From a virus: 39,252 nt of DNA. The stretch covers positions 1-39,252 of IMG/VR virus record IMGVR_UViG_3300042750_000005, one strand, 5' to 3'. Both the position numbers and the translations under genes were made by a program. A model generated the notes under the pieces. The model had not been told where the DNA came from. It made no database searches and was given only the letters and a program-made list of their open reading frames with translations. Shown piece by piece: positions 20,621 to 39,252 of the stretch; the first letter of the stretch is position 1, and each line of letters opens with the position of its first letter.

Positions 20621-20623
20621 ATT

Positions 20624-23425: not shown

Positions 23426-23437
23426 CACAAAAAACAC

Positions 23438-23464: not shown

Positions 23465-23495
23465 GTGCTGATAACAGAAACAGGAGTGCGTTTGA

Positions 23496-23651: not shown

Positions 23652-23872
23652 ATTTAACAATCAAGTCAATCGTTCGCTACCTTGGCGGGCCAACGCTAAT
23701 TTCCAAGCGTCTGGCTGAAAAGGGCGAAAACATTTCACCATCGGCAGTGAGCAAGTGGGGGCACCTTAAAAACATCCCAATCAAATACTGGCCGCATCTA
23801 ATTGAAATGGGGGCCGATCTGCGCCCATTGACCAATGACGACCTGGTGGCGGCACATACGAGGGCAAAATGA
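23648..23872 (+). CDS. Cro / YdaS-like helix-turn-helix regulator
   Basis: IVRYLGGPTLISKRLAEKGENISPSAVSKWGHLKNIPIKYWPHLIE matches the YdaS/Cro family pattern. It is the first sizeable gene of the rightward early operon. Confidence 0.6.
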   Translation: MNLTIKSIVRYLGGPTLISKRLAEKGENISPSAVSKWGHLKNIPIKYWPHLIEMGADLRPLTNDDLVAAHTRAK

Positions 23873-24321: not shown

Positions 24322-24785
24322 AACCAGACTTTCAAATACCGGGATACCTGAACCGCTGGCACCTGATACCGCGAAACAAATGGTTCAATGTTTACCTGCA
24401 TCAGTTTATCGGGCCTGACACCGGCACCGCGTGGCATGACCACCCATGGTGGAACCTGACCATAAAACTGCGTGGCGATTATGTGGAGACGGGTAATGGT
24501 GTCCGCAGGATGCTGGATGAGCGTGTAATTTTGCGTCGGCCAACATCCGCACACAAAATTGTTGACATTGACGCGCCGTGCTGGACGCTGTTCATCACCG
24601 GGCCGGTCGTGCGCGACTGGGGCTTCTGGGTTGATGGCAAATGGGTGAAACACACGGATTATCTGGACCCCATCCATGACGGTGAAATGCCATCGCCTCC
24701 CCCAAAAATGAGTGCGATAACCAAGGCGCGGCTGATGGGGGCACATGTTGCATTCGCTGGAAGGTTCACAAGGGGGCCGCGATGA
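24318..24785 (+). CDS. Hypothetical conserved phage protein (HDHPW motif)
   Basis: GGGAG ribosome-binding site and ATGA overlap. YLNRWHLIPRNKWFNVYLHQFIGPDTGTAWHDHPWWNLTIKL...WTLFITGPVVRDWGFW is a pattern I have seen in prophage genes of unknown function. Confidence 0.5.
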   Translation: MKPDFQIPGYLNRWHLIPRNKWFNVYLHQFIGPDTGTAWHDHPWWNLTIKLRGDYVETGNGVRRMLDERVILRRPTSAHKIVDIDAPCWTLFITGPVVRDWGFWVDGKWVKHTDYLDPIHDGEMPSPPPKMSAITKARLMGAHVAFAGRFTRGPR

Positions 24786-24868
24786 ATGCGGCAATATCCT
24801 TAACGCTCGTGGTGATCGGTGTGCTGCTGTTCTGCGCGGTGTCCGGCTACGTGATCCGCAATGATTGA
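24782..24868 (+). CDS. Possible 28-aa transmembrane peptide
   Basis: ATGA overlap with the previous stop. The product is MNAAISLTLVVIGVLLFCAVSGYVIRND. It is very short, so confidence is low. Confidence 0.25.
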   Translation: MNAAISLTLVVIGVLLFCAVSGYVIRND

Positions 24869-24992
24869 AATCCGGCGCAGCGATGCGTCAGATCGCGGCT
24901 GGTTACGCCCTGTGGCTGGCCGCGCCGTTTCTCCCTGTAAACTTGGCCCTGCGCGGTTAACTCCGCGTGGGGCGATCTTTTAGGAGTTGAAT

Positions 24993-25694
24993 ATGGCAAG
25001 GATCGAAACGCTGGCTGATGGGGTAACTCTCCTGCTTGGCGACTGCATGGATATTTTGCCCGGATTGCCAAAGCATGACGCGCTGGTGACTGACCCGCCT
25101 TATGGGATTAATTACCAATCATCTCTAACCGGGTTAGGGGCGCAAAAATTTGACAAGATAATTGGCGACATTGCAGAAATTGACCTATCCCTTATTCTAA
25201 ATCTCCAAATTCCAATTTTGGTATTTGGAGCTAATAACTTTCCGGCGCAGCTTCCCCAGCGGGGCCGGTGGTTATGCTGGGATAAGCGCACGATTGACGG
25301 CGCTTCGGATGCAATGCTGGGATCACCCTTTGAGTTGGCGTGGTCTAACAAAAAAAGTGGGTATGATAAGATTGTTCGCATTTTACACGGCGGCGTCGTC
25401 AATGCGGATGGCAAAGGCTTGCGCGTTCACCCTACACAGAAGCCTGTTGGCTTGATGAAGGCATGCATAGAATGGGTGGCAAATGACGCCAAAACCATCA
25501 TGGACCCGTTCATGGGCAGCGGCACAACCGGCGTTGCAGCCGTACAGATGGGGCGCAAGTTCACCGGCATTGAGATTTCAGAGCGTTACTTTGACATCTC
25601 CTGTAAAAGAGTTGAACAGGCTCTAGCCCAGCCAGATATGTTTATAAATGCCCCCGTTAGCGCACCGGCGCAGGGGTTTTTGGAGGATTTATGA
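24993..25694 (+). CDS. Orphan DNA methyltransferase, beta-class N6-adenine / N4-cytosine type
   Basis: Motif IV (VTDPPYG) comes before motif I (DPFMGSGTTGVAAVQMGRKFTGIE). GGAG lies 8 nt before ATG 24993. No restriction partner is present in the genome. Confidence 0.85.
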   Translation: MARIETLADGVTLLLGDCMDILPGLPKHDALVTDPPYGINYQSSLTGLGAQKFDKIIGDIAEIDLSLILNLQIPILVFGANNFPAQLPQRGRWLCWDKRTIDGASDAMLGSPFELAWSNKKSGYDKIVRILHGGVVNADGKGLRVHPTQKPVGLMKACIEWVANDAKTIMDPFMGSGTTGVAAVQMGRKFTGIEISERYFDISCKRVEQALAQPDMFINAPVSAPAQGFLEDL

Positions 25695-25891
25695 CCAAGA
25701 AGCCGAAGCTACTGCCCTGCGTTTGCGGCGGGACGCCCCACAACCATAAATATCCGGGCGTTACACAAAAGTGGGTGGGATGCGCATCATGCGTTATCGA
25801 GGTTATAGCGTTAACGCCTGGCCATGCGGCGATCATGTGGAACGCATCAATGAAAGCGCTCACGGAGGCGAAAAATGCCGACGTTGATTAA
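25691..25891 (+). CDS. Lar-like restriction alleviation family protein
   Basis: LLPCVCGGTP...WVGCASCVIEV...GHAAIMWNA fits the Lar pattern (PC-x-CGG ... C-x-x-C ... A-x-x-x-WN). ATGA overlap with the methylase gene. Confidence 0.5.
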   Translation: MTKKPKLLPCVCGGTPHNHKYPGVTQKWVGCASCVIEVIALTPGHAAIMWNASMKALTEAKNADVD

Positions 25892-26069
25892 GCCGAAGCA
25901 GGCAGAAGTCGATTTCTGGGAGATTGTTGAACATGAAAAACAGGCAATCCGTGTCCGGGTGTCTGGCAGCTTTTCCATATCCGACCCGAAAAAGCTGGGC
26001 GAATATATCGACAGGCTAAAAAGAGCGCATGCGTATCTAAAATCACAAGGCAAGGGGAAACAAAAATGA
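25875..26069 (+). CDS. Hypothetical protein
   Basis: GGAGG ribosome-binding site. 64 aa. Confidence 0.45.
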   Translation: MPTLIKPKQAEVDFWEIVEHEKQAIRVRVSGSFSISDPKKLGEYIDRLKRAHAYLKSQGKGKQK

Positions 26070-26176
26070 CTTTCCGTGCATCGGGTGCATCAACAGGTAG
26101 GCGGGCCAAACCGCAAAGGTTTTGTCTCGAATGTATGCAAGCGGCATTGCCGGAAACAATTGGAGAGGGACGATGA
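26066..26176 (+). pseudogene. Ghost 5' fragment of a DUF1064-family gene, left of the homing endonuclease
   Basis: MTFRASGASTGRRAKPQRFCLEC... compared with MKSFRASGASTGRKAKAQRFCLRC... at 26706. 19 of 23 aligned residues are identical, but 12 of those use different synonymous codons. The frame then diverges and stops at 26174-26176. Confidence 0.6.
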
Positions 26177-26709
26177 TTACTATTGAATTAACAGAATATC
26201 GTCTAAAAGAATTACTGCACTATGACCAAGATACGGGCATATTTACGCGATTAATTCAAATGTCTAGTAACGCAAAAGCTGGCGACAGAGCCGGGTCGTT
26301 TCATGTCGATGGTTATTTATGTATTAGCATAGACGGGAAAAAGTATAGGTCTCACAGGCTGGCGTGGTTTTACATGACCGGCGATTGGCCAACATCGGAT
26401 ATTGATCACATCAATGGCGTCAGAAGTGATAACCGGTTCGTTAATTTACGGCAGGCCACAAAGCCCCAAAACAATCAAAATTGCGCATTTTATAAAAATA
26501 ACAAATCTGGTTTTAGAGGTGTTTACTATTCCCCCGGCGGCAGAAAGAAAAAATGGCACGCCTGTATAAGGATCTCAGGGCGCACTAAGTTTATTGGTTA
26601 TTTCGCAAGCCGCGAAGACGCCCACGCCGCATATTTAGCGGCTAAAGCGAAATATCACCCATTTCAGCCTGTGCCGAGAGAGGTTTTGATCATGGAGGCA
26701 ACATTATGA
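26173..26709 (+). mobile_element. Free-standing HNH homing endonuclease gene (HNH_3 plus AP2 DNA-binding domain)
   Basis: YRSHRLAWFYMTGDWPTSDIDHINGVRSDNRFVNLRQATKPQNNQN is the HNH part and SGFRGVYY...KKKWHACIRISGRTKFIGYFASREDAHAAYLAAKAKY is the AP2 part. GGAGAGGGA ribosome-binding site. The gene is visibly more AT-rich than its flanks. Confidence 0.85.
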
Positions 26710-27188
26710 AATCATTCCGCGCATCCGGCGCATCTACAGGGCGCAAAGCAAAGGCGCAACGCTTCTGTCTGCGCTGCGAAGAACCTGTTTTGGGCATAGG
26801 CAAAAACTGCGACATATGCGGGAAGCCAGCGGAAAAATTCGACAGCAAGGCGGAATACAATCACTTCCACAAGCTGAAATTGCGCGAAAGGGCCGGTGAG
26901 ATATTCGGCCTGCGCTGCCATCCCAAATTCGAATTGAACGTGCGCCCCAATGATTATAACGGGCATGAGGGGGTGCACGTTTGTTACTACAGCCCTGATT
27001 TCAGCTATTCGGTCAAGGACGCCTATCACCCAGGGGGCGTTGCCGTGCACGAAGACGTGAAACCTGGAAAGCTGGTGAAGTCCGGCAAGATGAAGGGGCA
27101 GAAGAAGCCCGTAATGACCGCCGACGCTGCGCTAAAGATCAAGCTGTTCCAAGCCCTTTATGGGGTGAAGGTAAACATCATTTGTTGA
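26706..27188 (+). CDS. DUF1064-family endonuclease (putative Holliday-junction resolvase type) with an N-terminal Cys4 extension
   Basis: FDSKAEYNHFHKLKLRERAGEIFGLRCHPKFEL...YSPDFSY...VHEDVKPG...KIKLFQALYG fits the DUF1064 pattern. CLRC...CDIC lies at the N-terminus. Confidence 0.6.
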   Translation: MKSFRASGASTGRKAKAQRFCLRCEEPVLGIGKNCDICGKPAEKFDSKAEYNHFHKLKLRERAGEIFGLRCHPKFELNVRPNDYNGHEGVHVCYYSPDFSYSVKDAYHPGGVAVHEDVKPGKLVKSGKMKGQKKPVMTADAALKIKLFQALYGVKVNIIC

Positions 27189-27520
27189 ACACGAAGCGAT
27201 ACAGGGTAACATCAAGCAATATAACCGTAAACGGCTCGCGCGTCACGTCCAAAAGCCCTGCATGGCTGGGGCTGGATATGAGCAAGGCCGAACCGCGACA
27301 GCAAAGCACGATGATGCTGTTTGCTGTTGGCGCACACGCCCCGATTGATGTTCATCTGAGCGTTCCGTTTCAGCACGCTGGCGACACGGTAGATTCGGGA
27401 TGTTTCTACCGTGTCCGGCCAAAAATGGAAATTGGCGAGAAATGGCAGGGGAAAACTGTGGGATCGGTTGCGTTTGAGCGCTGGGATGGTGAGTGGTTTA
27501 TCGCGGTTAGATTTTGTTGA
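27182..27520 (+). CDS. Hypothetical protein (start uncertain)
   Basis: The ORF is open from a TTG at 27182, and an internal ATG at 27278 is also possible. The C-terminal GKTVGSVAFERWDGEWFIAVRF looks protein-like. No clear ribosome-binding site. Confidence 0.35.
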   Translation: MLNTKRYRVTSSNITVNGSRVTSKSPAWLGLDMSKAEPRQQSTMMLFAVGAHAPIDVHLSVPFQHAGDTVDSGCFYRVRPKMEIGEKWQGKTVGSVAFERWDGEWFIAVRFC

Positions 27521-27543
27521 TCTGCGCGCCGTGGGCCGTTTAT

Positions 27544-27561
27544 GCGCCGCGCGCGCGGCGC
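27544..27561 (+). terminator. 18-bp perfect GC palindrome GCGCCGCGCGCGCGGCGC followed by CTTCTT (weak terminator candidate)
   Basis: Read directly from the sequence. It lies 24 nt after the stop of the 27182 ORF, at the end of the early rightward operon. Confidence 0.35.
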
Positions 27562-27731
27562 GCTTCTTAGGGACACTGGGGAGCGGCCCCCGCATACGCA
27601 GTAACCGCTCAACCTGCGACACGGGCGCAGTCCCAGTGTGAGAGGATCATACGATATTGCTTGTCGCCGCGCAACGCATGAATCCGGCCTCGCCATGCCT
27701 TTGATTCCGCTTGCCTGACACCAAAAAATAT

Positions 27732-27760
27732 TTGACTTAGGTCACATTTATGGGTAATTT
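27732..27760 (+). promoter_or_regulatory. Sigma70-like promoter TTGACT-17-TAATTT with an upstream A-tract
   Basis: TTGACT at 27732-27737 and TAATTT at 27755-27760, preceded by CCAAAAAATAT. It lies upstream of the replication gene. Confidence 0.55.
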
Positions 27761-27873
27761 ATATCCGCGCATGACTGATCATCGTGCTTTGGGGGGATGG
27801 GTGAAAACGGAGTTGTTCCCGTCAAGCCGCCCCCCGCCCCTTCCCGCCAGGGAATGAACAACAGGAGGCCGCC

Positions 27874-28542
27874 ATTAATTACTACAAACACCACCTTGGT
27901 GATTACGAAACCCGCACCCGCCATTTAAGCCTGGCCGAGCATGGCGCGTACCGCCAGCTTATGGACGCTTACTACGCCACTGAAGAGCCTTTGCCGCTCG
28001 ACATAAACCGCATCTGCAAGATGATCAGGGTCTCAAACAGGACAGAAAAGCGACACGTTCTTGCAATTATCGTGCAGTTTTTTGAACAAAGTCCTGACGG
28101 CTTCCGGCATCACAGAATTGATCGTGAAATCGCAGTCTATCGCGAAAAAGCCTTAATAAACAAGGGCAATGCCAAGCGAACCGCTAAGCGAAACGAGAGC
28201 CAACCGCTAAGCGAAACGGCAACCAAGCCAGTAACCACTAACCAAGAACCAATAACCAATATACATATTATAGGCCCGACTAGCGTCGGCGAAAGCCCCC
28301 GCTTGAAAAGGAAAAGCAGGCTGGCCCCGGAATGGGAGATTGAGGAAGATGACCCAAACCACCTGTACTGCAAGGCCAAGGGCATGACGTGGGCGGAAAT
28401 GGAAGTCGAAGAGGAAAAATTCAAAAACCATCACACAGCGAAGGGTAACGTCATGCTGGACTGGAACGCAGCATGGCGGACCTGGGTTAACAACTGGCTG
28501 ACATACAGGAGGGGGGATTATGGCAAGGCGCAAGGACGGTGA
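27874..28542 (+). CDS. DUF1376 (YdaU-like) replication-associated protein; apparent ATT start
   Basis: The domain signature INYYKHHLGDYETRTRHLSLAEHGAYRQLMDAYYATEEPLP begins 29 codons upstream of the first in-frame ATG (27961). No ATG, GTG or TTG lies between the upstream stop and 27961. AGGAGG (27863-27868) sits 5 nt before ATT 27874. Confidence 0.6.
   Translation: MNYYKHHLGDYETRTRHLSLAEHGAYRQLMDAYYATEEPLPLDINRICKMIRVSNRTEKRHVLAIIVQFFEQSPDGFRHHRIDREIAVYREKALINKGNAKRTAKRNESQPLSETATKPVTTNQEPITNIHIIGPTSVGESPRLKRKSRLAPEWEIEEDDPNHLYCKAKGMTWAEMEVEEEKFKNHHTAKGNVMLDWNAAWRTWVNNWLTYRRGDYGKAQGR
28174..28274. repeat. Iteron-like direct repeats plus an AT-rich tract inside the DUF1376 gene (candidate replication origin)
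   Basis: The 17-mer AACCGCTAAGCGAAACG occurs at 28179-28195 and 28202-28218, a 23-bp period. AAGCGAA occurs three times and AACCA five times (28221-28258). AATAACCAATATACATATTATAGG follows. Confidence 0.45.
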
Positions 28543-28969
28543 AGAAACACGGGTTGATTGCGATGCGGTGGACCGTGACCATGACTGGCAGGCCATCTAT
28601 GCAAAACTGCGCACGGCCATAGGGGACCATCACGCCTATAACTGGTTCGGGCATTGCCGGTATCTGTCCTGCCATGACGGCATGATCCGGCTGGAGCATT
28701 GGTGCGCCTTCGCCGCGAAGGAATCACTGGCCCGGCACGGTTATGAACTCTGCAAAGCCGCGAACGTCCTGAACGCGGCTATCAGGTTCAATGGCGGCAC
28801 GGTCCCACACGGCTGTACAGCCCGAAAATCAGACGGCTATGCGCAATACACCATGCCCGGCCCGGTATCGGCGTCAACAGCGGAATATCGCATGCGGGTA
28901 ATAAATGATGCGCTGAACGGTGTTAGGGTGCCTACAGGAAGCCGTCAGTGTCGCACTGACGGCGATTGA
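28520..28969 (+). CDS. Hypothetical protein (replication-module position; loader or accessory candidate)
   Basis: 149 aa. AGGAGGGGGG lies just upstream of ATG 28520. It overlaps the DUF1376 3' end by 23 nt. Confidence 0.45.
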   Translation: MARRKDGEETRVDCDAVDRDHDWQAIYAKLRTAIGDHHAYNWFGHCRYLSCHDGMIRLEHWCAFAAKESLARHGYELCKAANVLNAAIRFNGGTVPHGCTARKSDGYAQYTMPGPVSASTAEYRMRVINDALNGVRVPTGSRQCRTDGD

Positions 28970-29031
28970 GGGTGTGGCATGTATCATTTAGTGGAAAACG
29001 GCCTACGGGCCTCTGGTGAAGGAATTTGGGC

Positions 29032-29238
29032 ATGGACAAAATGTGGTGCAAGGTAACATGGCTATGGCCAACATGGCTATGGCCGTGCGCGCCTGATGAT
29101 CTGTGGAGTCACCTCCCGGGTGACATTGGGGGCTTTAATCTGCCATCCGGGGAGATTATTTATCGGGGCGGAGAGAGGCCAATATCCACAAAGCCGGTCA
29201 AGGTTGCGGGGATGCAATGTGAGTATGAAATGTTATGA
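29032..29238 (+). CDS. Small Trp-rich hypothetical protein
   Basis: GAAGGA lies 8 nt before ATG 29032. ATGA overlap with the next gene. It contains the 15-bp tandem duplication. Confidence 0.3.
   Translation: MDKMWCKVTWLWPTWLWPCAPDDLWSHLPGDIGGFNLPSGEIIYRGGERPISTKPVKVAGMQCEYEML
29055..29084. repeat. Perfect 15-bp tandem duplication (AACATGGCTATGGCC x2)
   Basis: Read directly from the sequence. It encodes TWLWP-TWLWP in the small ORF. Confidence 0.9.
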
Positions 29239-29996
29239 CTAAAATCGAATGGACGCGAAATGACGATGGGACGGAAGGCAAGGCCTGGAATCCGATTGCA
29301 GGGTGCAGCGTCGTTTCGCCCGGCTGCACAAACTGCTACGCAATGCGTATGGCGGGTCGGATTGAAAAAATGCTGCCTGATAGCCATTACGGCGGCCTGA
29401 CGAAGACTGTAAACGGGAATCCTGTCTGGACAGGTAAGATCGCCCGCGCACCGGATCACATTTTCAATGCGCCGCTCAAGTGGCGGAATCCGACGCGGGT
29501 GTTTGTAAACAGCATGTCCGACCTGTTTCACGAAGATGTGCCGGATAACTGGATATATGATGTTTTTGAAATTATGGCTGGCGAATCGGGGCATCAATTC
29601 CAAATTTTAACCAAGCGCCCCGAAATAGCGTTGTCAATCAATCATTGGCTTGAGTGGCGTCCGAACATATGGCTGGGCGTCAGCGTCGAGAGCGCCGACC
29701 ATACACACCGAATTGATACGCTCAGAAAAACGAGCGCCGCAATCAAATTTCTGTCGCTGGAGCCGCTGTTAGGCCCATTGCCAGGCCTGAATCTTGATCG
29801 AATTGATTGGGTCATCGTTGGCGGTGAATCCGGCCCCGGCAAGCGCCCGGTAAATATCGACTGGATGCGGGATATCAGGGACCAATGCAAAGCGGCCGGC
29901 GTCCCGCTGTTTGTGAAACAGATAGACAAGAAAATACCGATCCCGGATGATTTGATGATACGGGAATGGCCCAAAACGAAAGGAGTTGAGGTATGA
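29235..29996 (+). CDS. Phage Gp37/Gp68 family protein (DUF5131)
   Basis: The N-terminus KIEWTRNDDGTEGKAWNPIAGCSVVSPGCTNCYAMRMAGR is the family signature (IEWT...WNP..GC...SPGC.NCYA). Confidence 0.75.
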   Translation: MTKIEWTRNDDGTEGKAWNPIAGCSVVSPGCTNCYAMRMAGRIEKMLPDSHYGGLTKTVNGNPVWTGKIARAPDHIFNAPLKWRNPTRVFVNSMSDLFHEDVPDNWIYDVFEIMAGESGHQFQILTKRPEIALSINHWLEWRPNIWLGVSVESADHTHRIDTLRKTSAAIKFLSLEPLLGPLPGLNLDRIDWVIVGGESGPGKRPVNIDWMRDIRDQCKAAGVPLFVKQIDKKIPIPDDLMIREWPKTKGVEV

Positions 29997-30397
29997 AGTT
30001 TGCAGAGTTTCATGATCTGTTGGGGATAATGAACGCCATTGCCAACCCGGATAAATATAGGGGTGAATCGAAACGGCTTTATGACACATTCATGGTCAAC
30101 CATGTTGATCTGCCCAAACCAGTGGGCATGGACGGGCAGCAGCCTGCGCAACCGTGCCGCGCGCCATGGGTATGTATGATATGCCGTAAGGCCCGCGCTA
30201 CGGGCTGGCTGGCTGCTGCGATAGGGCTTAAGCCACGCGCCCGGATAGTGTGCGCCCACTGCGCGGAGGATGTTGCCGGTTGCGGCTATATCTCATTCGC
30301 CGAAATGGCGGGCATTACGGAGGATGCGGAACTGAACGCAATCTGTGAATATCGGGCGGGTATGCCATCGGTTGCAGTGAAGATGGAGGATTTATGA
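29993..30397 (+). CDS. Hypothetical Cys-containing protein
   Basis: 134 aa with an ATGA overlap. CMIC...CAHC pairs suggest a zinc ribbon. Confidence 0.45.
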   Translation: MKFAEFHDLLGIMNAIANPDKYRGESKRLYDTFMVNHVDLPKPVGMDGQQPAQPCRAPWVCMICRKARATGWLAAAIGLKPRARIVCAHCAEDVAGCGYISFAEMAGITEDAELNAICEYRAGMPSVAVKMEDL

Positions 30398-30430
30398 TTG
30401 CAATCGCTGACCGGGTGTGGCAATGTCTGA

Positions 30431-30454
30431 ATGTGTGTGCTTTTATGTGTGTGC
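30431..30454. repeat. Direct repeat ATGTGTGTGC-tttt-ATGTGTGTGC
   Basis: Read directly from the sequence, in the convergent intergenic gap. Confidence 0.9.
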
Positions 30455-30455
30455 G

Positions 30456-30494
30456 CCCCCTAACCAGCCGCAACCCTGTTAGGGGGATTGTTTT
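30456..30494 (+). terminator. Rho-independent terminator (9-bp perfect stem CCCCCTAAC / GTTAGGGGG, then ATTGTTTTA)
   Basis: The stem arms lie at 30456-30464 and 30478-30486 with a 13-nt loop. The T-tract at 30488-30494 overlaps the stop codon of the convergent minus-strand gene. Confidence 0.7.
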
Positions 30495-30912
30495 ATAGGG
30501 CCGCCAAAACCCAGACACCGGCCTTTTTTGCGCGCCGTATCATGTCTTCCGTCCCTTTTCCTCCTGGGAACGCCACAACCATATCTGGCTTGCCGTCATC
30601 CAGCATTAACTGATTTCGGATCGGCCCAGCCGCTTTACCGTGGCTGGACCAGTCAGCGGGATATACCTTTGCCGCGCAGCCAAGTTCGGCGGCGATTTCA
30701 CCGGCGAGAGTGTCAGCCCCGGGCGCGCCACCGTGCATAATGGCGTCGGTATCGGGGTTGAACAGCGCATGTATGACGTTGCGCATCCGGGCTTTATCGG
30801 TATAATTCCGGCCACCGCATATCAGTATGCGCCTCATACCATCCACCATAGATACGCCTGACAGACAATCCCGGCCAGCAGCAGCAGGCATATGAAATCG
30901 CGGGTCATTCAT
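30493..30912 (-). CDS. SLOG-superfamily protein, DUF2493 / YspA-related
   Basis: RILICGGRNYTD...IMHGGAPGADTLAGEIAAELG...VYPADWSSHGKAAGPIRNQLML...DMVVAFPGGKGTEDMIRRAKKAGVWV fits the DUF2493 pattern closely. The start is uncertain: 30912 is coupled, while 30849 or 30837 fit the family N-terminus MRRIL. Confidence 0.75.
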   Translation of the reverse strand: MNDPRFHMPAAAGRDCLSGVSMVDGMRRILICGGRNYTDKARMRNVIHALFNPDTDAIMHGGAPGADTLAGEIAAELGCAAKVYPADWSSHGKAAGPIRNQLMLDDGKPDMVVAFPGGKGTEDMIRRAKKAGVWVLAAL

Positions 30913-30997
30913 CAAGCTTCCCAAAATTATCAATTTCGCGCGCGTCGATCCATGCAATCCAATATATGATCCCGAGCAGAATCCAAATGCCGGTCAT
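30905..30997 (-). CDS. Possible 30-aa transmembrane peptide
   Basis: ATGA overlap with the upstream stop and a GGAG ribosome-binding site. The product is MTGIWILLGIIYWIAWIDAREIDNFGKLDE. Confidence 0.3.
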   Translation of the reverse strand: MTGIWILLGIIYWIAWIDAREIDNFGKLDE

Positions 30998-31194
30998 TTC
31001 ACACTCCAAGGGTTGCCATTACAATTATGGTGCGGCGCATGGTTTTTACACCAGGCACAGATTTTAGGAACCGGGTTGCATTCACACTGAAAGTTGTCTG
31101 TATGCCGGAAGCCTTCATACATATGATTATGCTGTAAGAACATCCCCATATCGGCCCAAAGCGCCCCACTGCCAGCCGGATGCGAGTCAATCAT
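30994..31194 (-). CDS. Small Cys/His-rich hypothetical protein
   Basis: The product runs MIDSHPAG...FQCECNPVPKICAWCKNHAPHHNCNGNPW. I prefer ATG 31194 to the TTG at 31200. Confidence 0.45.
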   Translation of the reverse strand: MIDSHPAGSGALWADMGMFLQHNHMYEGFRHTDNFQCECNPVPKICAWCKNHAPHHNCNGNPWSVK

Positions 31195-31342
31195 TTTCAA
31201 CTCCCTCCAGATATTCGATGCGCGCCAGCAGGGCCTTCATATCGGCGACGGTTGACCCGTTTGTTGGTTTGCATGCTAAAATCTCTAGCAAGGCTTTTAG
31301 CAAAACGTCTACTTCATAAGGTTCAAGTTCAACGGTAATCAT
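31187..31342 (-). CDS. Small hypothetical protein (51 aa; below the track cutoff)
   Basis: ATGA overlap with the upstream stop at 31339-31342. The product is MITVELEPYEVDVLLKALLEILACKPTNGSTVADMKALLARIEYLEGVEND. Confidence 0.4.
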   Translation of the reverse strand: MITVELEPYEVDVLLKALLEILACKPTNGSTVADMKALLARIEYLEGVEND

Positions 31343-31872
31343 TGGGTTTCCTCCATAACTTGTCTAAACCTTATGGCTCGCCATTCCCCATCAGCGGCCT
31401 GCGCCGCAACCCGCGAAGCCGTCGAAGCCATCGTATGATGTACCGCCGCCATCGCTGCTATGCCAGCAGCCCCCGCAGCCTTCGAAGCTTTCACGCCCTG
31501 CGTGATGGTCCTCGCAGCCTTTGAAGCCGCCGCCGCAGCAACTTCAACTTCATCTAACGTGGCCTTATCTTCAATCCAAAGGCGGGTGGTTCTGATACAA
31601 TTCGCTGGCCGTACCTCACCTTCGGGGACGTATCTCAGCGATTGCTCGGCGAAATCACAAGCCAGAGAAACAATCAGCCTATGGTGTTCTGGCGCAATTA
31701 CCCGCAAACACCACAGAGCGTCATCAAGCCCATTGGATTCCAGCACTGTCACCATCGCCAGGGGTTCATCTTCGGCTTTGGTTTTTCCAAGGTGAGCAAG
31801 AAGCTTTTGCCATCCGTCTTTACAGGGCTGGTGAGCGCGGATTGCGTTTAAGGTTGTGTAAATCATCGCCAT
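31339..31872 (-). CDS. Hypothetical protein with a conserved N-terminal domain (PC-x-x-GW...NGLDDALWCLR) and an Ala-rich C-terminus
   Basis: A GGAAGGAAA ribosome-binding site lies before ATG 31872 (MAMIYTTLNAIRAHQPCKDGWQKLL...). The N-terminal motif recurs in bacterial and phage proteins of unknown function. Confidence 0.5.
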   Translation of the reverse strand: MAMIYTTLNAIRAHQPCKDGWQKLLAHLGKTKAEDEPLAMVTVLESNGLDDALWCLRVIAPEHHRLIVSLACDFAEQSLRYVPEGEVRPANCIRTTRLWIEDKATLDEVEVAAAAASKAARTITQGVKASKAAGAAGIAAMAAVHHTMASTASRVAAQAADGEWRAIRFRQVMEETQ

Positions 31873-31996
31873 TTTCCTTCCGTTTTGCGCGCCAGATGCG
31901 CTTGTACTCACGCTGATAATCCGTGCGTGTGCGGGGTTCCTTGCCCTTGGCTTTGAGCCGTGCATAGGTTTCTTGTGGTGTTTCAGGTTTTTTCAC
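31820..31996 (-). CDS. Possible small, highly basic protein
   Basis: A GTG lies one base after the upstream stop. The product runs VKKPETPQETYARLKAKGKEPRTRTDYQREYKRIWRAKRKENG... It overlaps the next gene start by about 50 nt, hence the low confidence. Confidence 0.3.
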   Translation of the reverse strand: MKKPETPQETYARLKAKGKEPRTRTDYQREYKRIWRAKRKENGDDLHNLKRNPRSPAL

Positions 31997-31997
31997 C

Positions 31998-32405
31998 TCA
32001 ATACCCCGCCGCTTCAAGATCATCGGCTAACTTGCGCATATCAGCCATGAATGCGCCGGGGTCTGTCCGGTAGGGCGTGATTTCCCTGTCGCGCGCGCCG
32101 TGGCCCCAGTTTGATAAATCGTGTCCAAGGTATGCGAGAGCGCTGCAAACCCGTCCATCGCGGAAATCATCTAGCGACTTTATCTTTTGACGATTCTCTG
32201 GAAAATCTTCTGGATAGAGTTCAGCAGCCCGTGATGCGTTGAGAGATTTCGCCATAACAGCTCCGGCGAGGCATACCTGGCAAACCCCATGATCTGGCAT
32301 GTGCCATTGCCCCATATCAATGGCGTAATTCGGGTCAGCCGCGCATAGCGCCAGATCGGCCAGTGCGAGACGGATTAATTCAGATGGTTTGTCGGGGAGG
32401 TTCAT
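31998..32405 (-). CDS. Hypothetical protein
   Basis: 135 aa from ATG 32405 (MNLPDKPSELIRLALADLALC...). No motif recognised. Confidence 0.5.
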   Translation of the reverse strand: MNLPDKPSELIRLALADLALCAADPNYAIDMGQWHMPDHGVCQVCLAGAVMAKSLNASRAAELYPEDFPENRQKIKSLDDFRDGRVCSALAYLGHDLSNWGHGARDREITPYRTDPGAFMADMRKLADDLEAAGY

Positions 32406-32473
32406 TGTTTCGCATCCTTTGGTTAATGTTGCATCTATGGACGCGCCAGCGACGCGCCCAGGGGTTGAAACCG

Positions 32474-32686
32474 TTATGAAGTAAGTTTTAGCAGGGGGTA
32501 AATCGGCCACGCCCGGCTACTCTCGCGCCCCTGCTCAATTTGGTCTGCGCAATCGATCTCCCACCCCGCTCGCCAAGCTATATCTTCCGGGCTGTCAATC
32601 TGATAGCCGCCGCCGTCTGCATAATGCGCCCCGCCGTTGTGCGCCTTGCGCCCTGTTTGGAACGCTTCGTAAAGCCGGTTTTGCAT
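32474..32686 (-). CDS. Hypothetical small protein
   Basis: 70-aa ORF. The start lies directly after the upstream stop. Confidence 0.4.
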   Translation of the reverse strand: MQNRLYEAFQTGRKAHNGGAHYADGGGYQIDSPEDIAWRAGWEIDCADQIEQGRESSRAWPIYPLLKLTS

Positions 32687-32688
32687 CG

Positions 32689-32988
32689 TTACCGCCCCCC
32701 GCGCCCATGGTTTTTACCGCCACACGCGCACTCGCACTTCATGACGCGGCCAGTGGCGTTTACACACCTGGCGTCGCAATCGTGACGGGATGCCCCGGAT
32801 TTATAAGTAACGACGCGGTCAACATGCCGCAAACCACCAGAATCGTCAGCGCTATATCCAACGAGCATGCTGAAACTGTCGGCGCGGCGTCCATTGACTG
32901 AAGGGAACCGTGCGGCAAAATCGGAGTTACGCATGCCGAACGGGCTTTTTAGAAGTGTCTCGCCGCTAAAATAAAGTGTTCTACTCAT
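32689..32988 (-). CDS. Hypothetical protein with a C-terminal Cys cluster (CDARC...CECACGGKNHG)
   Basis: 99 aa. The C-terminal C-x-C-x-CGG-x-NHG motif recurs in small phage proteins of unknown function. Confidence 0.5.
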   Translation of the reverse strand: MSRTLYFSGETLLKSPFGMRNSDFAARFPSVNGRRADSFSMLVGYSADDSGGLRHVDRVVTYKSGASRHDCDARCVNATGRVMKCECACGGKNHGRGGR

Positions 32989-33009
32989 AACCCTAACTCC
33001 CTGTATGTG

Positions 33010-33132
33010 TTAATGTGTCAGGCTATAGCTTATGAATCCCAGCGCGGCCGCGATGTACATGCAGCCGATGATGCATAGGCCGATGAAGGCTGTTTCGACT
33101 ATCGGGATAATCTTGTCTAAAATCTTGCTCAT
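33010..33132 (-). CDS. Possible 40-aa transmembrane peptide (first ORF of the leftward operon)
   Basis: GGGAG lies 9 nt upstream. The product is MSKILDKIIPIVETAFIGLCIIGCMYIAAALGFISYSLTH. Confidence 0.35.
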   Translation of the reverse strand: MSKILDKIIPIVETAFIGLCIIGCMYIAAALGFISYSLTH

Positions 33133-33180
33133 TGTCCAAACTCCCTGTTGTGAGCCGCGCCAACCGCTGCTCATGGGTTT

Positions 33181-33209
33181 AATATAGTCACGTTTTGTGA
33201 TTGCGTCAA
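33181..33209 (-). promoter_or_regulatory. Strong sigma70-like promoter TTGACG-17-TATATT with an operator-like inverted repeat in the spacer
   Basis: On the minus strand, TTGACG lies at 33209-33204 and TATATT at 33186-33181. The spacer contains TCACGTTTTGTGA (33188-33200). Confidence 0.6.
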
Positions 33210-33240: not shown

Positions 33241-33256
33241 ATCACGAAATCGTGAT
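33241..33256. promoter_or_regulatory. 16-bp inverted repeat ATCACG-AAAT-CGTGAT (operator-like), upstream of the 33181-33209 promoter
   Basis: Read directly from the sequence. Both 6-bp arms pair perfectly. The core TCACG-N4-CGTGA is shared with 14944-14957. Confidence 0.5.
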
Positions 33257-33297: not shown

Positions 33298-33831
33298 CTA
33301 GAATTTATATTTCTTTAACATGCGGGCGTCGCGCTTCTGCTGTTTGAGCTTCATTGCTGCTTTCATTTTTGCCCTGTCCATGCGCGCCATATTATCCATC
33401 TTGCCTTTGGAATATGATCCAGCCTCTTCTAGTGTTTCATTTTGCGCCGCGCGCCAATACAGGATCGGCGCGCCATCATTTGCGGCCTTCATTCCTGATG
33501 TTATGTGCGCGTCCTTGTGATCTGGACGCCAGTGTGTATAATCGCCGCATATTATGGCCGCCGCCTTCTCCAGCGCCTCTATGGCGTTGGCGGGTTCAAC
33601 ATCGAACCATTCCCCTTCAAGGGCACGGTCCCAGAACGTTGCATGCATGTGCTTTTCAAGTTTATAGGCGTTTACCACGCGAACAGCGCAATGCACATAA
33701 AGCTTAAATGGGCAGCCAGTTTGCATACTGGATAATCGTGGGCGCACCGATGTTGCCACGCCTATCTTGACCGGGCCGCTTGCATCCCACGCAACAACAT
33801 ATACATACGCTCTGGTAGCCGATTCCGTCAT
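33298..33831 (-). CDS. T5orf172 / MUG113 domain protein (GIY-YIG-superfamily nuclease-like)
   Basis: YVYVVAWDASGPVKIGVATSVRPRLSSMQTGCPFKLYVHCAV...AYKLEKHMHATFWDRALEGEWFDV fits the T5orf172 pattern. The ATG at 33831 (MTESATRA) is preferred. Confidence 0.65.
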   Translation of the reverse strand: MTESATRAYVYVVAWDASGPVKIGVATSVRPRLSSMQTGCPFKLYVHCAVRVVNAYKLEKHMHATFWDRALEGEWFDVEPANAIEALEKAAAIICGDYTHWRPDHKDAHITSGMKAANDGAPILYWRAAQNETLEEAGSYSKGKMDNMARMDRAKMKAAMKLKQQKRDARMLKKYKF

Positions 33832-34465: not shown

Positions 34466-35758
34466 TTGACCAGGCAGATCATAATCCCGTACCGCCCGCG
34501 CAAGCTGTTGATGCCGTTCCATGCGCGGACACAGCGCTGGGCCGTACTGGTGGCGCACAGACGGTTCGGGAAGACCGTCGGCATCATCAATGATATGCTC
34601 AAGCGGGCGCTTATGGTCAATACAGCCCAGCCAATATACAAGGATATCGGCCCCAGATACGCCTATATTGGCCCGTCAAAGGACCATGCCAAGGACGTCG
34701 CATGGGAGATGATAAAGGCCATCACGGCCAATATCCCAGGTGTCGAGTGTCGGGAAAGCGACCTGCACTGCAATTTGCCCAATGGCGCGCGTATCGCACT
34801 ATATGGCGGTGAGAACTATAACCGCATGCGCGGATTGCCGTTTGATGGTGCAGCGCAGGACGAAGACGCCCTGATCGATCCGAAATGCTTTACTGAAGTA
34901 GTCCGCCCCTGCCTGATCGACCGTAAGGGCTGGGCGGTATTCGCCAGCACGTTCAAAGGCATGAACCACTTTCATAAACGCTACACTGAGGCGGTTATCA
35001 ATGATGAATGGTACTGTGACATCCTGCCAGCCAGCCGCACCGGCGTCATCCCGGAGGATGAATTGTCAGCGCTGCGAAGGGATATGTCAGAAGAGCAATA
35101 CGCCCAAGAGATCGAGTGCAGCCCAATGAACGCGGTGTTGGGTGCATATTACCGCACCCAGATGCAGCGCATTGATGCAGAAAAGCGCATATCGACTGTT
35201 GCATGGCAACCGGAGACCGAAGTGCATACGGCCTGGGATTTAGGCCGTAGCACGGGCAACGCCACCGCGATATGGTTCTGTCAGTTAGTCGGAAACACCG
35301 TGCATGTGATCGATTATGAAGAGGCGACGCTAAAGGAATTGCCGTATTTCGCCAAGATCGTTAAGGAAAAGCCGTACACATATGGCCGTCATATCGTGCC
35401 GCATGACGCCAGGGTGACCGAATGGGGTACATCAAAGACCCGCATCGAGAGCATGGAAGCGCTGGGCATCCGTCCGGAAGTGGCCCCGCAGATATCATTG
35501 CAGGACGGCATTGAGGCGACACGGGCGTTTCTGGCGCGATGCGTGTTTGACGGCAAGAAGTGCGAACGGGGCATAAACGCCTTGCGCGAATATCAAACCT
35601 TGTATAACAGTAAAAACGATGTATATTCGGCTGTGCCGCTTCATAACTGGGCGTCCAATGGTGCGGATGCGTTCAGGTATCTGGCGGTTGCGGTAAAGCC
35701 GTCAACGCGCGGGGATTGGTCGAAGCCGATAAAGTATCCAGCGAGGGCTATCGTATGA
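34466..35758 (+). CDS. terL: Terminase large subunit (Terminase_6 type)
   Basis: The Walker-A-like VLVAHRRFGKT is followed by a nuclease half. 430 aa. TTG start at 34466, with ATG 34511 as the alternative. Confidence 0.85.
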   Translation: MTRQIIIPYRPRKLLMPFHARTQRWAVLVAHRRFGKTVGIINDMLKRALMVNTAQPIYKDIGPRYAYIGPSKDHAKDVAWEMIKAITANIPGVECRESDLHCNLPNGARIALYGGENYNRMRGLPFDGAAQDEDALIDPKCFTEVVRPCLIDRKGWAVFASTFKGMNHFHKRYTEAVINDEWYCDILPASRTGVIPEDELSALRRDMSEEQYAQEIECSPMNAVLGAYYRTQMQRIDAEKRISTVAWQPETEVHTAWDLGRSTGNATAIWFCQLVGNTVHVIDYEEATLKELPYFAKIVKEKPYTYGRHIVPHDARVTEWGTSKTRIESMEALGIRPEVAPQISLQDGIEATRAFLARCVFDGKKCERGINALREYQTLYNSKNDVYSAVPLHNWASNGADAFRYLAVAVKPSTRGDWSKPIKYPARAIV

Positions 35759-38953: not shown

Positions 38954-39252
38954 ATGGGCGATATTACATACGGCACACGCCCCGGCGCGGTGGCGCTGTT
39001 AACGACCGAGCTTAACAGTCTGGCCACTGCGACGTTTACGGCGTTCGGGCCGGTAATCACTCCGGGCAGCACCACCAACCTGACTATTCGGGCCTTGCGC
39101 GGGGACCTGCTTTTCAAGCTGGCCAGCAGTTCGCTGGCGCTGACCACCAGTTCCTTTGTGTCGGTGTATTTTGTCCCGGCTTTTGACGCCACAAACTACC
39201 CCAAACTGTCAGGCAATAACCTTGCCGAGGTGAACTATTTTGTCGGCAACAT
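38954..39252 (+). CDS. 5' part of the wrap-around CDS (continues as 128..296 after removing the 127-bp overlap)
   Basis: The ATG directly follows the previous TAA. The ORF is open to the window end and in frame with 33..296 through the repeat. Confidence 0.7.
   Translation, partial: MGDITYGTRPGAVALLTTELNSLATATFTAFGPVITPGSTTNLTIRALRGDLLFKLASSSLALTTSSFVSVYFVPAFDATNYPKLSGNNLAEVNYFVGN
39126..39252. repeat. Terminal direct repeat, copy 2 (identical to 1..127)
   Basis: Direct comparison of the two window ends. Confidence 0.95.

What the first reader, a model, noticed from the sequence alone, without database searches (positions are those of the whole stretch)
30493..33132. Early leftward operon of about ten small unknown genes ending in a SLOG (DUF2493) protein: candidate counter-defence island
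From the strong regulated promoter at 33181-33209, a chain of short, mostly overlapping ORFs runs to the terminator at 30456-30494. It includes three 30-51 aa peptides missed by the ORF track, two Cys-cluster proteins and one very basic peptide. None has an obvious replication or structural role. Early operons of small orphan genes are where phages keep host-takeover and anti-defence functions. The last gene is a clear DUF2493/YspA-type SLOG protein. SLOG domains bind nucleotides or nucleotide-derived ligands and appear in bacterial conflict systems. A free-standing phage copy could sequester or process a nucleotide immune signal. That role is speculation, and the function of phage DUF2493 proteins is not established to my knowledge.
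Basis: inference. Interest (0 to 1): 0.65.

Follow-up and report, generated by a model that had tools for sequence, protein, structure and literature searches.

The report
Mosaic phage accessory operon with SLOG
An uncultured 39-kb phage carries a separately promoted string of eleven tiny, tightly coupled genes, swapped like cassettes between unrelated phages and ending in a common phage nucleotide-binding (SLOG) protein. The anti-immunity role proposed for it is plausible and already published as a prediction, but it is still untested.

Summary
The gene chain is real. A sigma-70-like promoter (33181-33209) with two palindromes precedes eleven minus-strand genes, five of them joined by ATGA-type overlaps.

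- The SLOG gene starts at 30837 (114 aa), not 30957.
- A 24-aa membrane peptide (30834-30908) was missed.
- The basic peptide is genuine (pN/pS about 0.1).
- The "terminator" hairpin has its U-tract on the opposite strand.
- The lambda-like early-left recombination operon lies elsewhere (18911-22681), so "early" is unproven.

Three other metagenomic contigs share a backbone, g4...(g5)...g7...24-aa peptide...SLOG, at 74-96% nucleotide identity in the main gene-length blocks. Different cassettes sit between these genes, so this is a mosaic accessory module.

The last gene is a standard YAcAr/DUF2493 SLOG, a family found in 1,059 GenBank phage records. An anti-ADP-ribose-signal role for viral SLOGs was predicted in 2022, and I found no experimental test. 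Supporting context:
- a polyvalent NADAR-YAcAr(multiple copies)-DUF4326 protein lies next to g4-like genes in Vicinamibacterales MAGs;
- one operon gene is Imm5-like.

A DprA/ShosA-like DNA role is not excluded.

Verdict: an ordinary kind of phage accessory operon and a new member of a known kind. Counter-defence is a reasonable, unproven hypothesis.

The parts
33298..33831 (-). Upstream neighbour on the same strand: a T5orf172/MUG113 (GIY-YIG-like) protein of 177 aa. It is separated from the operon by the promoter-bearing 165-nt gap, and it is not certain that it belongs to the unit.
   Evidence: Pfam PF13455 1.3e-14 and PF10544 8.2e-11. PADLOC candidate PDC-S57 2.8e-11. The source's gene call is 177 aa.
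33241..33256 (.). Palindrome ATCACGAAATCGTGAT, an operator-like site about 54 bp upstream of the second one.
   Evidence: Matches to the 16-mer with up to 3 mismatches: 4 found against 0.28 expected.
33181..33209 (-). Sigma-70-like promoter TTGACG-17 nt-TATATT. The palindrome TCACGTTTTGTGA (33188-33200) lies inside its spacer.
   Evidence: 10/12 matches, the best site in 29.5-34.5 kb.
33010..33132 (-). g1: 40-aa single-pass membrane peptide with RBS GGGAG. A longer 54-aa form starting at ATG 33174 would be leaderless.
   Evidence: Called as 40 aa in a JGI contig. Best hydropathy window 2.38.
32689..32988 (-). g2: 99-aa protein with an invariant H-x-C-x3-C-x9-C-E-C-x-C-G-G-x2-H-G zinc-type cluster.
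   Evidence: 207 cluster representatives at E<=1e-3. The invariant columns are in alignment A3. No Pfam, PDB-sequence or GenBank-phage match.
32474..32686 (-). g3: 70-aa acidic orphan whose start lies 2 nt after the g2 stop.
   Evidence: No family or phage match. Support comes only from codon usage and position.
31998..32405 (-). g4: 135-aa member of a conserved uncharacterised family (motif LPDKPSELIRLAL...CxVCLAGAVMA). The predicted fold has no known match.
   Evidence: 153 homologues of about 135 aa. AlphaFold2 pLDDT 94.9. No PDB or BFVD fold match. No GenBank-phage match.
31820..31996 (-). g5: 58-aa very basic peptide. It starts at a GTG 1 nt after the g4 stop and overlaps the g6 start by 47 nt.
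   Evidence: A conserved 47-aa gene in L045 and L046 (90-91% aa). pN/pS is 0.08-0.13 in this frame and 0.6 or more, or undefined (no synonymous differences), in the other two frames.
31339..31866 (-). g6: 175-aa Imm5-like alpha-repeat protein. It is a cassette inserted at the g5/g7 junction and is absent from three relatives.
   Evidence: PF21805 1e-7 (32.3 bits against a 25-bit cutoff) and phrog_18326 2.8e-29. 1,113 homologues. Paired with g7 in L043.
31187..31342 (-). g7: 51-aa helical peptide, ATGA-coupled to g6.
   Evidence: Homologues at 49-61% aa identity in L006, L043, L045 and L046.
30994..31194 (-). g8: 66-aa Cys/His-rich orphan (CxC...CxxC...HHxC). This is a variable cassette position.
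   Evidence: No homologue in the loci or in GenBank phages.
30905..30997 (-). g9: 30-aa peptide with an N-terminal membrane helix and an acidic tail.
   Evidence: 97% aa identity in L045. ATGA overlaps at both ends.
   Evidence: 78-92% aa identity in L006, L045 and L046. Extra genes are inserted between it and the SLOG in L006 and L046. pN/pS is lower in this frame than in the SLOG-extension frame.
30493..30837 (-). g10: 114-aa stand-alone YAcAr/DUF2493 SLOG domain, the last gene of the unit.
   Evidence: PF10686 4.7e-14 and phrog_289 8.5e-27. 2,351 homologues, mostly 110-125 aa. AlphaFold2 pLDDT 97.1. Foldseek matches to LOG, DprA and ShosA at probability 1.0.
30456..30486 (.). Hairpin CCCCCTAAC-13 nt-GTTAGGGGG between the two convergent operons. 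The U-run lies only on the + strand.
   Evidence: Not reported by the terminator scan.

Best explanation
WHAT IT IS
This is an independently promoted, translationally coupled accessory operon. It sits in a complete 39,125-bp genome of an uncultured phage with SU10-type capsid and portal genes (so probably a podovirus), and no integrase gene was found.

HOW IT IS BUILT
The operon is assembled from exchangeable single-gene cassettes. They recombine at gene boundaries, at ATGA overlaps and at a shared ribosome-binding 'boundary' sequence.

A backbone of g4, g5, g7, a 24-aa membrane peptide and a SLOG protein is shared with other phages. Other cassettes come and go: the Imm5-like protein, the zinc-cluster proteins and further membrane peptides.

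WHAT IT MOST LIKELY DOES (inferred, not shown)
The products most likely act on the host rather than in replication or assembly. I infer three steps:
1. Host RNA polymerase transcribes the unit from a repressible sigma-70 promoter.
2. The 114-aa YAcAr SLOG domain binds, and possibly cleaves, an ADP-ribose- or nucleotide-derived molecule or adduct made by a host immune system.
3. The Imm5-like protein, and perhaps g4, neutralise host toxin-type effectors by direct binding.

The anatomy and the mosaicism are shown. The biochemical role is inference.
For: ANATOMY
- Promoter, palindromes, RBSs and overlapping junctions.
- Small genes validated by conservation and purifying selection.

ACCESSORY, MOSAIC NATURE
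- In L006/L013, L045 and L046 the main gene-length shared blocks are 74-96% nucleotide-identical; three short end-of-gene fragments of 23-44 nt also match.
- Non-homologous cassettes lie between the shared blocks.
- A shared boundary sequence precedes g2 here and three different genes in L046.
- g2, g3, g4 and g8 are absent from 50,697 GenBank phage records.
- No replication or structural family is hit.
- The replication, recombination, lysis and morphogenesis modules are all found elsewhere in the circular genome.

CONFLICT THEME
- YAcAr domains are fused with NADAR (DarT1-associated) and DUF4326 in one ORF of about 1,130 aa. g4-like genes lie 1.5 kb downstream, in at least five Vicinamibacterales MAGs.
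- The published prediction for viral SLOGs points the same way (PMC9503650).
- g6 is Imm5-like. The related Imm5 family was described as immunity proteins to DYW-deaminase and CdiA-CT toxins (PMC3482391).
- g4-like genes form tandem paralogue arrays in Bryobacterales, a pattern described for poly-immunity loci.
- A consensus-like sigma-70 promoter precedes the g6 cassette in another phage contig, L043.
Against: - No gene matches a characterised anti-defence protein by sequence or, for the two proteins modelled, by fold.
- There are no expression data, and timing is unknown.
- The SLOG model superposes best on DprA (TM 0.80) and ShosA (TM 0.79), which bind ssDNA.
- In Pseudomonas Iggyviruses the homologue lies between the DNA polymerase processivity factor and the DNA polymerase, with one small gene in between. 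Elsewhere the domain is fused to helicases.
- The g4-SLOG neighbourhood is not obligate. Only 5 of 106 more distant g4 loci carry a YAcAr gene, and those represent 3 distinct contexts. Three further long phage contigs with g4 lack one.
- The backbone may therefore reflect recent common descent rather than a functional system.
- The host is unknown, so no cognate defence system can be named.
Confidence: 0.45

Rival explanations
1. The SLOG protein works in DNA metabolism. Under this reading it is a minimal DprA/ShosA-like Rossmann domain that binds ssDNA, or loads or modulates a recombinase or the replisome. The rest of the operon would be unrelated cargo.
For: - The best TM-scores of the model are to DprA (0.80, 0.74) and ShosA (0.79).
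- Many phage records annotate homologues as DprA-like.
- In Pseudomonas phage Knedl the gene lies between the DNA polymerase processivity factor and the DNA polymerase, with one small gene in between.
- The domain is fused to SF1 helicases in ICP1 HelB and a Brevundimonas phage.
- ShosA needs ssDNA binding and RecA contact to work (PMC12961424).
Against: - No hit to the DprA Pfam family at E<=0.1.
- At 114 aa the protein cannot include DprA's flanking domains (known from the literature, not tested here). Whether it dimerises was not tested.
- This phage already has a complete exonuclease, annealing protein, SSB and NinB module in another operon.
- Here the gene sits among membrane peptides and orphan cassettes, not among replication genes.
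- YAcAr fusions to NADAR and DUF4326 point to ADP-ribose chemistry.
Confidence: 0.2
2. The operon has no common function. It is a holding site where unrelated, individually selected or selfish small genes accumulate by boundary-sequence recombination. The SLOG is simply a frequent passenger.
For: - Cassette-by-cassette replacement among four related operons.
- A shared boundary sequence.
- Most of the genes are orphans.
- Weak g4-SLOG co-occurrence at larger evolutionary distance.
Against: - The same backbone order (g4, g7, 24-aa peptide, SLOG, with g5 retained in three of the four) is kept in four contexts despite cassette turnover.
- Coupling is tight, with ATGA overlaps.
- Even the 24- and 58-aa genes are under purifying selection.
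Confidence: 0.2
3. The unit benefits a carrier cell (a moron-type function). It would provide superinfection exclusion through the membrane peptides, or immunity to bacterial toxins through the Imm5-like protein. That would make it defence rather than counter-defence.
For: - An own sigma-70 promoter with operator-like sites.
- Three small membrane peptides.
- An Imm5-like immunity homologue.
- The adjacent T5orf172 protein resembles a PADLOC candidate-defence component.
Against: - No integrase was found in the parts of the complete circular genome that were scanned, and no repressor was identified. No stable carrier state is therefore evident.
- No operon gene hits any PADLOC model.
- The relatives are also phage-like contigs.
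Confidence: 0.1

Closest known systems
YAcAr / DUF2493 family of the SLOG superfamily (Pfam PF10686; PHROG 289, labelled 'GTP-binding domain'; often annotated 'DprA-like' in phage records)
   Same: - Scores well above the Pfam threshold.
- Same length class as its 110-125-aa homologues.
- Same motifs: the GGR loop after strand 1, GGAxGAD, and PGGxGT.
- Same stand-alone architecture and the same kind of location among small phage genes.
   Different: Nothing essential: it is a member. What is particular here is the ATGA coupling to a 24-aa membrane peptide and the position as last gene of a convergent accessory operon.
ThsA SLOG sensor domain of type I Thoeris, and phage signal sponges or nucleases (Tad1, Tad2, Acb1, Acb2, Apyc1)
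   Same: It has the SLOG fold, which in ThsA binds 3'cADPR (literature found). Sequestering or destroying an immune nucleotide signal is the proposed way of working.
   Different: It has no effector domain and no detectable sequence relationship to Tad, Acb or Apyc proteins. No PDB match to any of them was found. Ligand binding is untested.
DprA and ShosA (DprA-like antitoxin of the ShosTA defence system)
   Same: These give the best structural superposition of the Rossmann-like core (TM 0.74-0.80).
   Different: There is no Pfam DprA hit. The protein is only 114 aa, against 215-353 aa for the matched chains, so it is too short to include DprA's flanking domains.
LOG cytokinin-activating phosphoribohydrolases
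   Same: The best Foldseek E-value is to a type-II LOG (3.1e-4). It shares the PGGxGT loop.
   Different: The LOG catalytic Glu, three residues after the Thr of PGGxGTxxE, is replaced by an invariant Met. A near-invariant Asp sits one position earlier. There is no Pfam LOG hit.
Polyvalent NADAR/Macro-SLOG-DUF4326 proteins of phages and conjugative elements (Iyer et al. 2022, PMC9503650)
   Same: The same YAcAr domain is involved. g4-like genes lie next to such proteins in Vicinamibacterales MAGs.
   Different: Here the SLOG is free-standing, and no NADAR, Macro, Nudix or DUF4326 domain was detected among the window proteins scanned.
Mosaic accessory ('moron' or hot-spot) regions of phages with boundary-sequence shuffling
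   Same: It has its own promoter, single-gene cassettes and exchange at gene junctions between otherwise unrelated genomes.
   Different: It combines very small genes (24-58 aa) with ATGA coupling, while a recognisable backbone is retained.

Membership tests
YAcAr / DUF2493 SLOG (PF10686) | Match to the family profile above the curated threshold | tested here: met
   52.4 bits against a 28.2-bit cutoff, E 4.7e-14. phrog_289 E 8.5e-27.
YAcAr / DUF2493 SLOG (PF10686) | Rossmann-like SLOG fold with alternating strands and helices | tested here: met
   AlphaFold2 pLDDT 97.1, five strand-helix units. Foldseek probability 1.0 to LOG, DprA and ShosA.
YAcAr / DUF2493 SLOG (PF10686) | Conserved glycine-rich loops and polar residues (GGR, GGAxGAD, PGGxGT) | tested here: met
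   G9, R10, G36, G40, A41, G92, G95 and T96 are invariant, and D42 and D98 are at least 90% conserved, in 70 sequences.
YAcAr / DUF2493 SLOG (PF10686) | Binding or processing of a nucleotide or ADP-ribose-derived ligand | not testable with these tools
   Needs biochemistry. Only contextual support exists: the fusion with NADAR and DUF4326.
LOG phosphoribohydrolases | PGGxGTxxE motif with the catalytic Glu, and a family profile match | tested here: not met
   The Glu position is an invariant Met (M99). No Pfam hit other than YAcAr at E<=0.1.
DprA / Smf | Family profile match, plus a length that can accommodate the flanking domains | tested here: not met
   No DprA Pfam hit. The protein is 114 aa in total, against 215-353 aa for the matched DprA and ShosA chains. 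The structural core is similar (TM 0.74-0.80).
DprA / Smf | ssDNA binding and RecA loading | not testable with these tools
   Needs gel-shift and interaction assays.
Known phage anti-defence proteins with solved structures (Tad1/2, Acb1/2, Apyc1, Ocr, Acr and others) | Sequence or fold similarity of an operon product to one of them | tested here: not met
   PDB sequence searches with the SLOG, g4 and g6 found nothing relevant. Foldseek against the PDB with g4 and the SLOG found no such match. g1-g3, g5 and g7-g9b were not modelled.
Imm5-like immunity proteins (PF21805) | Family profile match above the curated threshold | tested here: met
   g6: 32.3 bits against a 25-bit cutoff, E 1e-7.
Imm5-like immunity proteins (PF21805) | Genomic linkage to a cognate toxin | tested here: not met
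   No toxin domain was found in the proteins scanned from the operon or the rest of the genome. Any target would be host-encoded.
Bacterial anti-phage defence systems (PADLOC) | Match of an operon protein to a defence-system model | tested here: not met
   No hit for the nine operon proteins submitted (g1 and g9b were not scanned). Only the upstream T5orf172 protein hits the candidate PDC-S57.
Sigma-70 transcription unit ending in an intrinsic terminator | Consensus -35 and -10 hexamers at correct spacing upstream of the first gene | tested here: met
   TTGACG-17-TATATT, 10/12 matches. Activity was not measured.
Sigma-70 transcription unit ending in an intrinsic terminator | GC-rich hairpin followed by a U-run on the transcribed strand | tested here: not met
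   The hairpin is present, but the U-run lies on the + strand only, and the z-score is -1.3. The terminator scan did not call it.
Early (pre-replicative) operon | Expression before replication, or position within the early control region | tested here: inconclusive
   A host-type promoter fits early expression. The divergent early control region, with its recombination and replication operons, lies at about 22.7-23.0 kb. No expression data exist.

The most novel reading that the evidence does not exclude
The conserved backbone (g4 new-fold protein, basic g5, g7, the 24-aa membrane peptide and the YAcAr SLOG) could be one dedicated multi-protein counter-defence device. In this reading the SLOG captures or cleaves an ADP-ribose-derived immune signal or DNA adduct, perhaps at the membrane. 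g4 would be a previously unrecognised immunity-type inhibitor family, which also forms poly-immunity-like arrays in Acidobacteria and accompanies NADAR-SLOG-DUF4326 polyvalent proteins.
Probability: 0.12. Interest if true: 0.7.

Novelty: new member of a known kind. Interest (0 to 1): 0.35.

Why it matters
YAcAr/DUF2493 SLOG proteins occur in about 2% of GenBank phage records (1,059 of 50,697), yet I found no experimental function for them. A compact operon with a clear promoter gives a convenient construct for testing the published prediction that viral SLOGs blunt NAD+/ADP-ribose-based immunity.

The work also flags two uncharacterised families absent from GenBank phage records:
- g4, which has a confident predicted fold with no known match;
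- g2, which has an invariant zinc-type cluster.

It also shows that 24-58-aa genes missed by gene callers are under selection.

If nothing comes of the anti-defence idea, this remains a tidy example of cassette mosaicism at gene boundaries in an uncultured phage.

Tried and rejected
SEARCHES THAT FOUND NOTHING
- Megablast of the operon and of 25 kb of the genome against GenBank phages: no match.
- IMG/VR scans with g6 and the large terminase: only 1 and 2 distant loci.
- PADLOC and NCBIfam on the operon proteins: nothing useful.
- PDB sequence searches with the SLOG, its profile, the g4 profile and g6: nothing relevant.
- Foldseek with g4 against the PDB and BFVD: no match.
- Rfam and tRNA scans of the window: nothing.
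- Pfam at E<=10 on all the small peptides, including a check for SLATT-type 2TM partners of SLOG: only chance-level hits.

IDEAS CONSIDERED AND REJECTED
- The 139-154-aa SLOG ORF as the gene. Rejected because of homologue lengths and the genes inserted upstream of Met26 in relatives.
- The N-terminal extension of g6 (208-aa ORF). Rejected in favour of g5, on selection and conservation.
- g4 and SLOG as an obligate pair. Rejected: 5 of 106 loci.
- A temperate lifestyle. No integrase was found among the proteins scanned from the complete genome.

LITERATURE
- A search for 'YAcAr' returned only papers on Caiman yacare.
- The 2015 SLOG classification paper (PMC4678834) is not held.

Full report
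THE GENOME

The window is a complete circular assembly. Its first and last 127 nt are identical, giving a unit length of 39,125 bp. The source contig (ENA ERZ27235089, k141_158677, 39,266 bp) is another linearisation of the same circle.

The modules are as follows:
- Packaging and morphogenesis: large terminase (34511-35758), SU10-type portal and major capsid protein, and tail genes.
- Lysis: a cell-wall hydrolase at 17438-17929.
- Leftward recombination operon, 18911-22681: exonuclease, single-strand annealing protein, HTH protein, SSB and NinB/Orf.
- Rightward operon, 22989-30397: DNA methylase, HNH, DUF1064, a DUF1376 primosomal-type protein and DUF5131.

No integrase was found among the proteins scanned. 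The nearest cultured large terminase is that of Pelagibacter phage HTVC010P, at 42% identity. There is no nucleotide-level match to 50,697 GenBank phage records.

The unit under study is therefore a third transcription unit. It is convergent with the replication operon and divergent from the terminase genes. The label 'early leftward operon' is not established.

ANATOMY

The strongest promoter-like site in 29.5-34.5 kb is TTGACG-17-TATATT at 33209-33181 on the minus strand. It lies in a 165-nt gap.
- A TCACGTTTTGTGA palindrome lies inside its spacer.
- A perfect-arm palindrome, ATCACGAAATCGTGAT, lies about 54 bp upstream.
- The motif is enriched in the window: 7 found against 2.0 expected, with no shuffle of 100 reaching 7.

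Eleven genes follow:

| Gene | Coordinates | Product |
|---|---|---|
| g1 | 33010-33132 | 40-aa membrane peptide |
| g2 | 32689-32988 | 99 aa, zinc-type cluster |
| g3 | 32474-32686 | 70 aa |
| g4 | 31998-32405 | 135 aa |
| g5 | 31820-31996 | 58 aa, very basic |
| g6 | 31339-31866 | 175 aa, Imm5-like |
| g7 | 31187-31342 | 51 aa |
| g8 | 30994-31194 | 66 aa, Cys/His-rich |
| g9 | 30905-30997 | 30 aa, membrane helix |
| g9b | 30834-30908 | 24 aa, membrane helix |
| SLOG | 30493-30837 | 114 aa |

The five junctions from g6 to the SLOG overlap by 4 or 8 nt.

The hairpin at 30456-30486 has its U-run on the + strand only, and its folding energy is unremarkable. It is best read as the terminator of the convergent operon.

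RELATED OPERONS SETTLE THE GENE MODEL

Three other metagenomic contexts share blocks with this operon.

| Context | What it is | Gene order |
|---|---|---|
| L006/L013 | 60-kb phage-like contig with SNF2 helicase and QueD; binned into a 'Methanoperedens' MAG | g4, 65-aa gene, g7, 77-aa gene, g9b, 61-aa gene, SLOG |
| L045 | 3-kb contig | g4, 78-aa gene, g5, g7, g9, g9b, SLOG |
| L046 | 6.7-kb contig | g4, g5, g7, 84-aa gene, g9b, 52-aa two-helix membrane gene, SLOG |

Nucleotide identity of the shared blocks:

| Block | L006 | L045 | L046 |
|---|---|---|---|
| g4 | 82.5% | 94% | 88% |
| g5 | absent | 94% | 95% |
| g9b | 93% | 96% | 82-83% |
| SLOG | 92% | about 86% | 74% |

What this shows:
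- g5 is a real gene. In L045 and L046 it is a 47-aa gene running straight into g7. pN/pS is 0.08-0.13 in its own frame. In the other two frames the ratio is 0.6 or more, or undefined because there are no synonymous differences.
- g6 is an insertion at the g5/g7 junction. It travels with g7 in a further contig, L043.
- g9b is real, and the SLOG starts at Met 30837. Extra genes sit exactly at the ATGA junction in L006 and L046. The peptide frame is better conserved than the alternative frame. SLOG homologues are 110-125 aa.
- A 25-nt ribosome-binding 'boundary' sequence (ACATACAGGGAGTTAGGGTTATGAG) precedes g2 here and three unrelated genes in L046. None is expected by chance. This suggests how the cassettes are swapped.

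THE PROTEINS

SLOG
- It is a standard member of PF10686 YAcAr. There are 2,351 homologues in the large collection and matches in 1,059 GenBank phage records.
- The AlphaFold2 model is very confident (pLDDT 97.1).
- It matches LOG enzymes, DprA and ShosA. The best E-value is to a type-II LOG. The best TM-scores are to DprA (0.80) and ShosA (0.79).
- The LOG catalytic Glu position is an invariant Met, and there is no DprA profile hit. It belongs to neither family.

g4
- It defines a family of at least 153 proteins with no Pfam model.
- Its model is very confident (pLDDT 94.9) and has no match in the PDB or BFVD.
- It has no relative in GenBank phages.

g2
- It belongs to a family with 207 cluster representatives and an invariant His/Cys cluster.

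g6
- It is Imm5-like. The related Imm5 family was described as immunity proteins to DYW-deaminase and CdiA-CT toxins (PMC3482391).

Other genes
- No operon gene hits PADLOC.

EVIDENCE BEARING ON FUNCTION

For a conflict role:
- In at least five Vicinamibacterales MAGs, g4-like genes lie about 1.5 kb downstream of an ORF of about 1,130 aa.
- Pfam finds a DarT1-type NADAR domain, three YAcAr stretches and DUF4326 in that ORF. My own profile finds up to four YAcAr domains.
- This is the kind of ADP-ribose-processing combination that Iyer et al. used to predict that viral SLOGs act on ADP-ribose-derived immune molecules (PMC9503650).
- In Bryobacterales, g4-like genes form tandem arrays of eight or more paralogues, interleaved with DUF29 genes. 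This resembles poly-immunity loci.

Against over-reading:
- The g4-SLOG neighbourhood is loose. Only 5 of 106 more distant g4 loci contain a YAcAr gene, and those represent 3 distinct contexts. Three long phage contigs with g4 have none.
- In cultured phages the SLOG gene sits in mixed contexts. In Knedl it lies between the polymerase processivity factor and the DNA polymerase, with one small gene in between. In RcWhiteOak it is among MazG, a nucleoside hydrolase and an ADP-ribosyltransferase. In MinM2 it is in a run of orphans.
- The domain is fused to a helicase in ICP1 HelB.
- I found no experimental work on phage YAcAr proteins in the held literature.

CONCLUSION

The evidence supports a mosaic, host-directed accessory operon. 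It does not discriminate between a small-molecule or ADP-ribose-directed SLOG and a DprA/ShosA-like DNA-directed one.

I rate the counter-defence reading as the single most likely (about 0.45), and the finding as a new member of a known kind with moderate interest.

Noticed in passing
window 1-127 and 39126-39252: The two ends of the window are an identical 127-nt direct repeat. The assembly is therefore circular, with a unit length of 39,125 bp, and the genome is complete.
   Followed up: yes
window 18911-22681 (-) and 22989-30397 (+): Divergent lambda-like early region. Leftward: exonuclease, annealing protein, HTH, SSB and NinB/Orf. Rightward: methylase, HNH, DUF1064, DUF1376 primosomal-type protein and DUF5131. 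This, not the finding, is the classic 'early left' operon.
   Followed up: partly
window 14943-14958: A third copy of the operator-like palindrome (ATCACGAAAACGTGAA, 2 mismatches to the one at 33241-33256). It lies in the gap between two tail-region genes, upstream of a DUF4214 protein gene. The same regulator may act there.
   Followed up: no
window 32984-33008; L046 458-482, 776-800, 1488-1512: A conserved 25-nt ribosome-binding 'boundary' sequence (ACATACAGGGAGTTAGGGTTATGAG) precedes g2 and three unrelated small genes in a related contig. A weaker copy precedes g1. It is a candidate recombination site for cassette exchange.
   Followed up: partly
window 33172-33174: An in-frame ATG lies 6 nt after the -10 hexamer. 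A transcript from this promoter could therefore be leaderless and encode a 54-aa form of g1 instead of the 40-aa form that has a Shine-Dalgarno site.
   Followed up: no
L032 52-3438 (also L028-L030, L033-L035): Vicinamibacterales MAG chromosomes and contigs encode polyvalent proteins of about 1,100 aa with NADAR (DarT1-type), multiple YAcAr SLOG domains and DUF4326. There are several copies per genome. An AbiEii-like nucleotidyltransferase lies nearby. These are probably integrated mobile elements.
   Followed up: partly
L018, L020-L024 (Bryobacterales MAG OZ241991.1) and L019: Tandem arrays of eight or more g4-like paralogues per 10 kb are interleaved with DUF29 genes and an IS transposase. 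Several paralogues are preceded by a similar upstream stretch, which reads as ...RFPP..CERKAPNP... when translated.
   Followed up: partly
L013 (JAHFDG010000019.1) = L006: A 60-62-kb phage-like contig (SNF2 helicase, QueD, lysozyme, small-gene operon) is deposited as part of a 'Candidatus Methanoperedens' groundwater MAG. This is probably a binning artefact rather than evidence for an archaeal host.
   Followed up: no
L046 3071-3231: A relative carries an additional 52-aa two-helix membrane protein between the 24-aa peptide and the SLOG gene, ATGA-coupled at its SLOG end. L006 has a soluble 61-aa gene at the same spot.
   Followed up: partly
window 30394-30498 (+): The source's gene caller placed a 34-aa gene across the inter-operon hairpin. 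It overlaps the SLOG stop and is probably spurious.
   Followed up: no
window 33298-33831 (-): The T5orf172/MUG113 protein just upstream of the promoter resembles the PADLOC candidate-defence component PDC-S57. It could be a regulator, a homing-type nuclease or a defence remnant.
   Followed up: no
window 24270-24785 (+): An early-right gene matches phrog_4786, annotated 'cysteine dioxygenase' (E 2.3e-36). This is an unusual function for a small phage.
   Followed up: no
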